A stretch of DNA of 64,000 nucleotides. Origin: Escherichia coli. Lineage in GTDB: Bacteria; Pseudomonadota; Gammaproteobacteria; Enterobacterales; Enterobacteriaceae. The position numbers were made by a program, and so were the translations under genes. Of this stretch, positions 41,938-42,926 are shown one piece after another. The DNA lies in the NCBI RefSeq assembly GCF_024298765.1, contig NZ_CP101210.1; one strand, given 5' to 3'. The notes beneath the pieces were generated by a model. That model did no database searches and was not told the DNA's origin. It worked only from the letters and a program-made list of their open reading frames with translations. Numbering within the stretch: position 1 is the stretch's first letter; every line of letters begins with the position of its first letter.

Positions 41938-42210
41938 ATGTTCCCTTAATTATCTGGTCAGTTAACAATAACAATTATCTGGCTATAACTGATAATGCAG
42001 ATAACTTAGCTAATCAGCTTATCAACCTCAGCAAGAGGTAAATTTGCCATCTCTGCAACGTCTTCCCGAGACATCCCTTTACTCAGAAAACGCAGGGCGA
42101 ATTCCTGTCTTACTTCCTGTCTAACCTCTTGTATTACCTCCTGTCTTACCTCCTGCCTTTCCTCCTGTCTTCCCCTCTCTTCAAACCACTGCGCCAGCGT
42201 CATCATAGAC
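41734..42210. repeat. Tandem imperfect direct duplication of the rpnC 3' end
   Basis: The 41740-41940 block and the 42010-42210 block share long near-identical stretches (for example ttgccatctctgcaacgtcttcccgagacat and ctcttcaaaccactgcgcca). Confidence 0.7.
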
Positions 42211-42926
42211 TGCCCTCCCGTTTCCCTGTCTCTCAGCACACCATAAAACAAATCCGCTTGTTCAGTATGACCGCGTTGCAGCATATAGTTTTGCATGGCA
42301 ACTAACTGACTTCCGCTAGTGTACCCTTCGTCAATCAGCGTGACCAGTTGCTCCAGCAATAACATTAAGTCGCGCTGGCGAATATGTTTTTGCAGTAGTT
42401 CGAGAATCACAATCCGCCGATGTTGCATGATTTCGTCATCCGGTGTGATGGTGATATCCACCAGCGGGAAAGGGTTGTTGTAAACGCGTCGCGCCAGCTC
42501 CGGCGAGTAAAACATATCAAACCAGCACATTGAGAGCGGATAAGGTGTGGCCTCGCCCTGATAAAACAGAATCGGCACCACCAGCGGCAGCTTATCGTGA
42601 TCCGCCTCCAGATGCCGGTGCATGGCGGCAATGGCATAGCGCATCATGCGAAAGGTCATTTTCTTATCCGGCTTGCTTTGATGTTCAATCACCACATGCA
42701 AATAACCGGGATTACCCTGCATTTGCACGGAATAGAGTACGTCCATGCTGTGCCCTTTCAGGCTTTCTTCAATAAAACTCCCCGACTCAAGATGCAGCGT
42801 GTCGAGGTCACACAGTTCGCGTAGTTCCGCTGGCAAATGGATATCCAGAAAGTCACGAGCCGTTTCCGCATGCATTAAAAATTGTTTAAATACCGCGTCA
42901 TGCGGTGTGGTACTCGGTGCATCCAT
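42006..42926 (-). CDS. rpnC: Rpn-family recombination-promoting nuclease (PD-(D/E)XK, YhgA-like)
   Basis: 306-aa ORF MDAPSTTPHDAVFKQFLMHAETARDFLDIHLP... with nuclease core motifs (D-x-n-VIEHQSK). Location between panC and panD matches K-12 yadD (rpnC). Confidence 0.85.
   Translation of the reverse strand: MDAPSTTPHDAVFKQFLMHAETARDFLDIHLPAELRELCDLDTLHLESGSFIEESLKGHSMDVLYSVQMQGNPGYLHVVIEHQSKPDKKMTFRMMRYAIAAMHRHLEADHDKLPLVVPILFYQGEATPYPLSMCWFDMFYSPELARRVYNNPFPLVDITITPDDEIMQHRRIVILELLQKHIRQRDLMLLLEQLVTLIDEGYTSGSQLVAMQNYMLQRGHTEQADLFYGVLRDRETGGQSMMTLAQWFEERGRQEERQEVRQEVIQEVRQEVRQEFALRFLSKGMSREDVAEMANLPLAEVDKLIS

What the first reader, a model, noticed from the sequence alone, without database searches (positions are those of the whole stretch)
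42006..42220. Internal ribosome-binding site and ATG-ATG inside rpnC for the small C-terminal protein
On the rpnC mRNA, a strong Shine-Dalgarno (GGGAGGG, minus strand, about 42211-42217) sits 7 nt upstream of in-frame tandem ATG codons (42206-42201). Initiation there would give a 66-aa protein spanning the C-terminal domain. This is the architecture described for intragenic Rpn antitoxins, so the locus appears to encode both the long nuclease and the short in-frame product.
Basis: partly seen in the sequence, partly recalled or inferred. Interest (0 to 1): 0.5.

Follow-up and report, generated by a model that had tools for sequence, protein, structure and literature searches.

The report
Known internal start in rpnC
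The E. coli nuclease gene rpnC really does carry a strong internal ribosome-binding site and start codon for a 66-residue copy of its own tail, but this "antitoxin inside the toxin gene" was mapped in 2019 and explained in 2023, so the finding is correct and not new.

Summary
The frame stops at 42008-42006, which gives 66 aa. Its predicted pairing with the 16S rRNA tail (-10.8 kcal/mol) is the strongest of 493 internal in-frame ATGs in the window's 52 genes. The equivalent ATG carries a Shine-Dalgarno in 65 of 66 Rpn homologues from Enterobacterales, against 8.5% of their other internal ATGs.

The window is E. coli (100% identical to strain 104). The start-site sequence differs by one spacer base from a 300-aa K-12-type rpnC. 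For MG1655, published ribosome profiling and tagging show the short protein RpnCS, and it blocks the SOS induction caused by RpnC (Meydan 2019 preprint; Zhong 2023).

The other family hallmarks are present:
- an N-terminal PD-(D/E)XK nuclease domain;
- a C-terminal helical domain matching the RpnAS crystal structure (7TH0);
- six 12-nt (4-aa) repeats in helix 1.

A second, stand-alone copy, rpnCSs (41734-41937), lies downstream, which is also a published arrangement.

Verdict: interpretation supported, already known, low interest. One open point: in all 19 two-copy loci sampled, rpnCSs differs in helix-1 length from the nested copy.

The parts
42006..42926 (-). rpnC, encoding full-length RpnC (RpnCL, 306 aa), the toxic PD-(D/E)XK nuclease
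   Evidence: ORF. Annotated as an Rpn family recombination-promoting nuclease (WP_000339897.1) in strain 104. TIGR01784 scores 271 bits against a cut-off of 52. It is 93% identical to a K-12-type RpnC.
42306..42908 (-). N-terminal nuclease domain (residues 7-207)
   Evidence: Pfam PF04754 Transposase_31 (YhgA-like), E 2.9e-85. D62 and E81-H82-Q83-S84 are invariant in 63 of 63 homologues.
42213..42219 (-). Internal Shine-Dalgarno GGGAGGG, coded within Gly-Gly (ACG GGA GGG)
   Evidence: Sequence. Anti-SD energy is -10.8 kcal/mol, top of 493 internal ATG contexts in the window. The core is invariant in 12 E. coli alleles. An SD is present at the homologous place in 65 of 66 homologues.
42201..42206 (-). 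Tandem in-frame ATG-ATG (Met241-Met242), the internal translation start
   Evidence: Sequence. Met242 is conserved in 60 of 63 homologues. The SD-to-ATG1 spacing of 7 nt falls in the family range of 5-8, whereas ATG2 is at 10 nt.
42006..42206 (-). Nested rpnCS ORF (66 aa from ATG1), the intragenic antitoxin
   Evidence: A profile of 53 RpnS sequences matches PDB 7TH0 (RpnA, 49-aa chain) at E 5.3e-12. The AF2 model has three helices, at residues 4-42, 47-54 and 58-65. The published function is in PMC10400941.
42099..42170 (-). Six 12-nt (4-aa) repeats, RQEE RQEV RQEV IQEV RQEV RQEF, in helix 1. This is the hypervariable specificity segment.
   Evidence: TRF finds period 12, 5.8 copies, at 42103-42171. 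Allele lengths of 50, 54, 58, 62, 66, 70 and 74 aa step by 4. The repeats begin at residue 13 of RpnCS, within the published range of 8-20 residues.
42318..42346 (-). Weak candidate internal sigma-70 promoter, TGGTCA-17-TACACT (8 of 12)
   Evidence: Relaxed scan. The stringent scan found nothing on this strand. It is listed only because the paper reports an internal transcription start in all rpn genes. The position is not verified.
41734..41937 (-). rpnCSs, a stand-alone second copy of the C-terminal domain (67 aa). It has its own start, AAGGGA (41947-41942), 4 nt, then ATG.
   Evidence: ORF. It is 58% identical to the RpnC tail and scores TIGR01784 E 9.8e-9. The start region is identical in 8 of 8 loci. 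Its start lies in unusually unstructured RNA, at the 97th percentile. The junction is present in 1555 of 5426 genomes. The arrangement is described in PMC10400941.
41646..41670 (.). GC-rich hairpin between the convergent panC and rpnCSs genes, a likely shared terminator
   Evidence: Terminator-like site, 9-bp stem. It was scored on the + strand (panC), where a T-run follows it; the same hairpin lies about 65 nt past the rpnCSs stop on the other strand.

Best explanation
rpnC in this E. coli strain is a two-in-one toxin-antitoxin gene of the published RpnLS type.

- Initiation at 42926 gives RpnCL (306 aa). It consists of a PD-(D/E)XK DNA endonuclease domain followed by a three-helix C-terminal domain.
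- Ribosomes also initiate at the internal SD and ATG (42219-42213 and 42206), most likely at ATG1. This happens on the full-length mRNA and probably mostly on a shorter transcript from an internal promoter. The product is RpnCS (66 aa), identical to the C-terminal domain.
- RpnCS pairs through its long first helix with the same helix of RpnCL and holds the nuclease inactive.
- Helix length is set by the number of 12-nt repeats, six here. Because both proteins are read from the same DNA, any repeat gain or loss changes both at once, so they stay matched.

Shown here: the sequence anatomy, its statistical outlier status, its conservation, and domain homology.
Shown by others for K-12 RpnC: the ribosome-profiling signal at the internal start, the short protein itself, and repeat-matched blocking of SOS induction.
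Inferred: the same holds for this allele, and release of RpnCL serves phage defence, which has been shown only for plasmid RpnP2.
For: - Sequence and frame.
- Strongest SD of all in-frame starts in the gene and of 493 internal ATGs in the window.
- In 66 Rpn homologues from Enterobacterales, the homologous ATG has an SD of -4.4 kcal/mol or stronger in 98%, against 8.5% of 694 other internal ATGs. Median energy is -8.5 versus -1.5, Mann-Whitney p 1e-38. The SD is coded through different amino acids (G-G, K-E, E-E, H-G-E), so the selection acts on the nucleotides.
- The 70-nt start-site segment is present in 5415 of 5426 complete E. coli genomes. The SD core is invariant in 12 alleles whose tails range from 50 to 74 aa.
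- Nuclease domain, Pfam E 2.9e-85; D62 and E81-Q83 invariant.
- The RpnS profile matches the RpnAS crystal structure 7TH0, E 5.3e-12. The AF2 model has a long helix 1 plus two short helices.
- 12-nt repeats.
- Literature: PMC10400941 and bioRxiv 10.1101/520783.
Against: - Nothing in this strain was measured. Expression and antitoxin activity are extrapolated from MG1655, whose RpnCS has a different repeat segment (KGIEKGIQQGRQEVSQEF versus RGRQEERQEVRQEVIQEVRQEVRQEF).
- Predicted mRNA accessibility at the internal start is only average for the gene.
- I found no convincing internal promoter, only an 8-of-12 match.
- The AF2 model is of moderate confidence (pLDDT 72), and Foldseek against the PDB gave no significant hit.
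- Antiphage activity has not been shown for chromosomal RpnC.
Confidence: 0.9

Rival explanations
1. The short protein starts at the second ATG (42203), giving 65 aa rather than 66 aa. Met242 is the ancestral initiator and Met241 is only an internal residue of RpnCL.
For: Met242 aligns with the single conserved Met of the family (60 of 63), while Met241 occurs only in the Escherichia RpnC lineage and one other homologue. Both ATGs give the same predicted SD energy.
Against: SD core to ATG spacing is 5-8 nt in all 59 homologues where the core lies close to the start. In RpnC it is 7 nt to ATG1 but 10 nt to ATG2. The SD seems to have moved together with the extra ATG.
Confidence: 0.25
2. RpnCS is made mainly from a separate short transcript that starts at a promoter inside rpnC, not by internal initiation on the full-length rpnC mRNA. 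The SD and ATG then act as an ordinary start site of a nested gene.
For: [quoted passage not shown] Accessibility of the site within the long mRNA is only average.
Against: No good sigma-70 match lies upstream in this window: the best is TGGTCA-17-TACACT, 8 of 12. Expression from a heterologous rhamnose promoter still gave RpnS, so the long mRNA can also be used. The two routes are not exclusive.
Confidence: 0.5
3. The GGGAGGG is simply how Gly-Gly happens to be coded, or at most a ribosome pause site. No separate protein is made in this strain.
For: SD-like GGAGG motifs also occur three times in the repeat array without a start codon, so such motifs can exist in this gene for coding reasons.
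Against: It is the top-ranked SD among 493 internal ATGs. The SD is conserved at the homologous ATG across paralogues that code it with different residues. The sequence is near-identical to the K-12-type allele, and in K-12 (MG1655) the product was detected.
Confidence: 0.03
4. RpnCS acts mainly as a helix-turn-helix DNA-binding regulator, for example an autorepressor, rather than by direct protein-protein inhibition of RpnCL.
For: The best, though non-significant, structural neighbours of the model are HTH DNA-binding domains: serine recombinase, KorB, DeoR and LuxR-type. There are weak sigma-factor region 4 matches. The authors note HHpred relatedness to HTH motifs.
Against: Purified RpnAS blocks RpnAL cleavage in vitro and forms a complex with it. 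Repeat-number matching is required for RpnC. All Foldseek E-values exceed 0.5.
Confidence: 0.08

Closest known systems
E. coli K-12 RpnC (YadD) and its internal product RpnCS (Zhong et al., PNAS 2023, PMC10400941; internal start first listed in the Ribo-RET preprint 10.1101/520783)
   Same: Same chromosomal locus between panD and panC. The protein is 93% identical to the K-12-type sequence. The SD and ATG-ATG are the same apart from one spacer base. The nuclease domain and C-terminal helices 2-3 are the same.
   Different: The helix-1 repeat segment differs in sequence and is 8 residues longer (RQEV-type units here, KGIE/KGIQ-type in K-12). RpnCS is 66 aa here against 60 aa. This strain also carries the downstream rpnCSs, which K-12 lacks.
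RpnA and RpnAS (crystal structure PDB 7TH0)
   Same: Same family architecture and the same position of the internal start. The RpnS profile that includes the window protein matches the 49-aa 7TH0 chain end to end, E 5.3e-12. Both are three-helix domains with a long first helix.
   Different: It is a paralogue with low sequence identity in the tail: a single-sequence phmmer search did not find it. RpnAS is shorter, with fewer or no repeats. Direct biochemistry exists for RpnA only.
rpnE-ypaA (RpnESs), the published example of a stand-alone RpnS copy downstream of its rpn gene
   Same: A small separate gene immediately downstream that duplicates the C-terminal domain, as rpnCSs does here.
   Different: The duplication arose independently according to the paper's phylogeny. 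rpnCSs is present in only about 29% of complete E. coli genomes. Its translation has not been shown in what I read.
Classical type II toxin-antitoxin modules (separate adjacent genes, protein antitoxin)
   Same: A protein antitoxin binds and neutralises a toxic enzyme. Links to phage defence are proposed.
   Different: Here the antitoxin is an in-frame sub-ORF of the toxin gene and is identical in sequence to the toxin's own C-terminal domain. The two therefore co-vary by necessity.

Membership tests
RpnLS (Rpn/YhgA-like) gene-within-gene toxin-antitoxin | N-terminal PD-(D/E)XK (YhgA-like, PF04754) nuclease domain with conserved acidic core | tested here: met
   Pfam PF04754, E 2.9e-85, residues 7-207. 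TIGR01784 scores 271 bits against a cut-off of 52. D62, E81, H82, Q83 and S84 are invariant in 63 homologues.
RpnLS (Rpn/YhgA-like) gene-within-gene toxin-antitoxin | In-frame internal translation start (SD plus ATG) at the beginning of the C-terminal domain | tested here: met
   GGGAGGG, 6 nt, then ATGATG at 42219-42201. Energy of -10.8 kcal/mol ranks first of 493. The feature is conserved in 65 of 66 homologues.
RpnLS (Rpn/YhgA-like) gene-within-gene toxin-antitoxin | C-terminal domain homologous to RpnAS, a three-helix bundle with a long dimerising first helix | tested here: met
   Profile A3 matches 7TH0 (RpnA) at E 5.3e-12 over the full length. The AF2 model has helices at 4-42, 47-54 and 58-65, pLDDT 72. 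Foldseek did not recover 7TH0: all E-values exceed 0.5.
RpnLS (Rpn/YhgA-like) gene-within-gene toxin-antitoxin | Strain-variable 4-aa (12-nt) repeats starting 8-20 residues after the internal Met | tested here: met
   Six dodecamers at 42170-42099, starting at residue 13 of RpnCS. E. coli alleles run from 50 to 74 aa in steps of 4.
RpnLS (Rpn/YhgA-like) gene-within-gene toxin-antitoxin | Internal promoter giving a short transcript | tested here: inconclusive
   Only an 8-of-12 sigma-70 match at 42346-42318, and none in the stringent scan. The dRNA-seq source paper was not available.
RpnLS (Rpn/YhgA-like) gene-within-gene toxin-antitoxin | The short protein is actually synthesised and neutralises the long protein | not testable with these tools
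   Shown for MG1655 RpnC by Ribo-seq, SPA tag and the dinD-lacZ assay (PMC10400941). It is extrapolated to this allele.
RpnLS (Rpn/YhgA-like) gene-within-gene toxin-antitoxin | Antiphage defence activity | not testable with these tools
   Demonstrated only for plasmid RpnP2LS. PADLOC v2.0.0 matches neither RpnC nor rpnCSs and gives only a marginal hit (RmrA, E 0.0067) for RpnCS. The genes flanking rpnC here are housekeeping genes (pan operon, yadE-yadI), not a defence island.
Pfam DUF4351 (PF14261), the label some stand-alone RpnS proteins carry | Match to the PF14261 profile | tested here: not met
   The Pfam scan of RpnC lists no DUF4351 hit over the tail, even at E up to 10. RpnCS and RpnCSs match only the C-terminal end of TIGR01784.

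The most novel reading that the evidence does not exclude
The stand-alone copy rpnCSs may not be a spare antitoxin for the resident nuclease.

In all 19 two-copy E. coli loci sampled (about 11 distinct allele pairs), its helix-1 segment differs in length from the nested RpnCS by 4-20 residues. The two copies also vary independently. By the published one-repeat-mismatch rule, rpnCSs should therefore be unable to neutralise the RpnCL of its own strain.

It could instead do one of three things:
- act as a donor cassette for swapping the C-terminal specificity domain;
- neutralise incoming non-self Rpn alleles;
- act as a decoy for a phage factor.
Probability: 0.2. Interest if true: 0.45.

Novelty: already known. 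Interest (0 to 1): 0.15.

Why it matters
For annotation, it matters that rpnC is listed as one CDS in the RefSeq records I examined. Both the nested antitoxin and the downstream rpnCSs go unnamed or misnamed: rpnCSs is called 'transposase', 'hypothetical protein' or a pseudogene. Readers of such genomes miss a toxin-antitoxin and possible defence module.

Scientifically, the case adds nothing beyond Zhong et al. 2023, apart from one more allele with six RQEx repeats. It also gives a small-sample indication that the nested and stand-alone copies are never length-matched. That makes the role of rpnCSs a concrete, testable question.

Tried and rejected
- Single-sequence phmmer of RpnC against PDB sequences found only marginal Trp-repressor matches (E > 0.1) and missed RpnAS. 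A profile of 53 RpnS sequences was needed. The top-ranked designed PPR proteins in that search are summed repeat artefacts with no individually significant stretch.
- Foldseek of the AF2 model against the PDB gave no hit with E < 0.5 and only generic HTH domains. It is not usable as a membership test for a 66-residue helical protein.
- PADLOC has no Rpn model. Pfam gives no DUF4351 hit.
- RNA accessibility at the internal start is average (55th percentile), so it argues neither way.
- The stringent promoter scan found nothing on the minus strand, and the relaxed scan gave only one 8-of-12 match. The dRNA-seq paper was not held, and the PNAS supplements were not held. I could therefore not place the published internal transcription start or read the exact published RpnCS start codon.
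- I considered whether the K-12 single-copy allele is a fusion of the rpnC 5' part with rpnCSs. Its 3' part and flank do align better with the window's rpnCSs. However, E. albertii, E. whittamii and two unnamed Escherichia species also have a single copy. Single copy may simply be ancestral, so this is left undecided.
- Three PGAP 'pseudogene, missing N-terminus' calls for rpnCSs proved to be annotation artefacts. The start region is identical to that of intact copies.

Full report
**Observation.** On the minus strand the window reads ...GAAACGGGAGGGCAGTCTATGATGACGCTGGCGCAGTGG.... The tandem ATGs lie at 42206-42201, and six bases separate the G-run from ATG1. Both ATGs are in frame with the 306-codon ORF 42926..42006. 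ATG1 to the TAA at 42008-42006 gives 66 aa. The description is therefore correct.

**Identity of the locus.** The 1.4 kb around the site is 100% identical to E. coli strain 104 (NZ_CP029164). There the ORF is annotated as an Rpn family recombination-promoting nuclease, lying between panD and panC. The whole window is the ordinary map-to-aceF chromosomal region. A 300-aa K-12-type rpnC from a laboratory strain is 93% identical in protein. Its internal start region differs only at the base after the G-run, GGGAGGGG versus GGGAGGGC here.

**Is it more than chance?** Predicted pairing of the upstream 17 nt with the 16S rRNA 3' end is -10.8 kcal/mol.
- This is the strongest of the 30 in-frame ATG/GTG/TTG codons in the gene, and stronger than the annotated start at -8.4.
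- Among 493 internal in-frame ATGs in the window's 52 annotated genes, these two ATGs rank first. The next best is -8.5, and no other site reaches -10.
- GGAGG also occurs three times in the downstream repeat array without a start codon. The signal is therefore the SD combined with a spaced ATG.

**Comparative evidence.** One scan of species-representative genomes returned 73 Rpn-family loci from Escherichia, Citrobacter, Klebsiella, Serratia, Pantoea, Erwinia, Salmonella and others.
- In 66 of them with a recognisable tail, the Met that opens the motif M-T-[ILV]-A-[EQ] has an SD of -4.4 kcal/mol or stronger in 98% and of -6 or stronger in 79%.
- For 694 other internal ATGs of the same genes, the figures are 8.5% and 3.6%. 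Median energy is -8.5 versus -1.5, Mann-Whitney p 1e-38.
- The SD is written through different residues in different lineages (Gly-Gly, Lys-Glu, Glu-Glu, His-Gly-Glu). The constraint therefore acts on the RNA, not on the protein.
- Within E. coli, the 70-nt start-site segment is found in 5415 of 5426 complete genomes, at 95% identity or more in 5408 of them.
- The SD core and ATGATG are unchanged in 12 sampled alleles whose tails range from 50 to 74 aa.

**Which ATG?** Met242 is the family-conserved residue (60 of 63). However, SD-to-ATG spacing in the family is 5-8 nt. In RpnC it is 7 nt to ATG1 and 10 nt to ATG2. ATG2 is not excluded.

**Domains.**
- Residues 7-207 match Pfam PF04754 (YhgA-like) at E 2.9e-85. 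D62 and E81-H-Q-S84 are invariant.
- An alignment of 53 RpnS-type tails (A3) used as a profile matches the 49-residue chain of PDB 7TH0, 'Recombination-promoting nuclease RpnA', end to end at E 5.3e-12.
- AlphaFold2 with this alignment predicts a 39-residue first helix followed by two short helices. Confidence is moderate, pLDDT 72.
- Foldseek against the PDB gave only non-significant HTH-domain neighbours. That agrees with the authors' HHpred remark but proves nothing.

**Repeats.** Tandem Repeats Finder reports a 12-nt period with 5.8 copies at 42103-42171. In codons these are RQEE RQEV RQEV IQEV RQEV RQEF, starting at residue 13 of RpnCS. Sampled E. coli alleles have RpnCS of 50, 54, 58, 62, 66, 70 and 74 aa; K-12-type has 60 aa because its tail is 2 aa longer.

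**What is already published.**
- The Ribo-RET preprint (10.1101/520783) lists yadD (=rpnC) among genes with a conserved in-frame internal start and locally raised synonymous-site conservation.
- Zhong et al. 2023 (PMC10400941) show Onc112 and retapamulin profiles for rpnC, and detect SPA-tagged RpnCS in MG1655.
- They report an internal transcription start in all rpn genes, and show that RpnS proteins block RpnL toxicity, SOS induction and, for RpnA, DNA cleavage.
- They solve the RpnAS structure and describe the strain-variable 4-aa repeats.
- They show that RpnCS with one extra repeat no longer counteracts RpnC unless RpnC carries the same extra repeat.
- They also note that some E. coli strains have a second copy, rpnCSs, downstream of rpnC.
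- Phage protection was shown only for plasmid RpnP2LS.

**Mechanism.**
- Shown here: the start-site anatomy, its outlier strength, its conservation, the domain homologies and the repeat array.
- Shown by others for K-12 RpnC: the ribosome-profiling signal at the internal start, the short product, and repeat-matched neutralisation.
- Inferred: this allele behaves the same way. RpnCS (66 aa) would pair through helix 1 with the identical segment of RpnCL and keep the nuclease off. Nesting would keep toxin and antitoxin matched whenever the repeat number changes. Release during phage infection would be the purpose.
- RpnCS is probably translated largely from a shorter internal transcript. I could find only a weak promoter candidate, TGGTCA-17-TACACT at 42346-42318.

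**The downstream copy.**
- ORF 41734-41937 (67 aa) repeats the C-terminal domain and is 58% identical to the RpnC tail.
- It lacks the ancestral SD and ATGATG, having ...CCAGGCAGACG... instead. It starts at a new ATG preceded by AAGGGA, in unusually unstructured RNA.
- The junction sequence is present in 1555 of 5426 genomes. The start region is identical in 8 of 8 loci, including three that PGAP labels pseudogenes.
- Other Escherichia species sampled have a single copy.
- In 19 two-copy loci, the helix-1 segment of RpnCSs never equals that of the resident RpnCS: it is 31 versus 21 residues in the window, and differences range from 4 to 20.
- Strain CS18F has the window's exact RpnC but an RpnCSs one repeat longer.
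- Under the published matching rule, RpnCSs should therefore not neutralise its own strain's RpnCL. This is a small-sample side observation, not a result.

**Dead ends.** These are listed under Tried and rejected.

**Verdict.** The feature is the already described RpnCL/RpnCS gene-within-gene toxin-antitoxin, in an allele with six RQEx repeats plus the known optional rpnCSs copy. Novelty: already known. Interest: low (0.15). The only loose thread is the role of the length-mismatched stand-alone copy.

Noticed in passing
window 41734-41937 (-), compared with 42006-42206 (-); loci L003, L064, L076-L085, L088-L095: The stand-alone rpnCSs copy never has the same helix-1 length as the nested rpnCS in 19 two-copy E. 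coli loci. Differences are 4-20 residues, and the window has 31 versus 21. The two copies vary independently: strain CS18F has the same RpnC but a longer RpnCSs. By the published repeat-matching rule, rpnCSs should not neutralise the resident nuclease.
   Followed up: partly
window 41734-41937 (-); L082, L083, L084, L091, L093: RefSeq annotation of rpnCSs is inconsistent: 'transposase', 'hypothetical protein', 'RpnC/YadD family protein', or a pseudogene 'missing N-terminus'. Yet the SD, the ATG and the first 60 nt are identical in 8 of 8 aligned loci, three of them called pseudogenes (L082-L084). The pseudogene calls look like artefacts.
   Followed up: yes
window 42141-42169 (-): Three perfect GGAGG Shine-Dalgarno-like motifs sit 12 nt apart inside the dodecamer repeats (RQEE and RQEV codons: AGG/AGA CAG GAG GAA/GTA). 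No start codon follows them. Whether they influence ribosome traffic on the rpnCS message is unknown.
   Followed up: no
L002 (K-12-type rpnC) versus window 41640-42330: At the DNA level, the 3' part and downstream flank of the single-copy K-12-type rpnC align better with the window's rpnCSs than with the window's own rpnC tail. The alleles are mosaic. This could reflect deletion or fusion between the copies, or an ancestral single copy. It is undecided.
   Followed up: partly
L096 (E. coli AF10) 1218-2306: In one genome an IS3-family transposase gene lies directly downstream of rpnC, and the rpnCSs junction match is cut short at that point.
   Followed up: no
L064 (contig CALXDF010000219.1): A metagenome bin labelled 'uncultured Oscillospiraceae' carries a 98%-identical E. 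coli-type rpnC tail plus rpnCSs on a 4.3-kb contig. This is most likely binning contamination.
   Followed up: no
window 8929-8974 (-): This was the only Rfam hit in the window: the HtrA 5' UTR thermometer (RF02700, 77 bits) upstream of degP. It is expected for E. coli.
   Followed up: no
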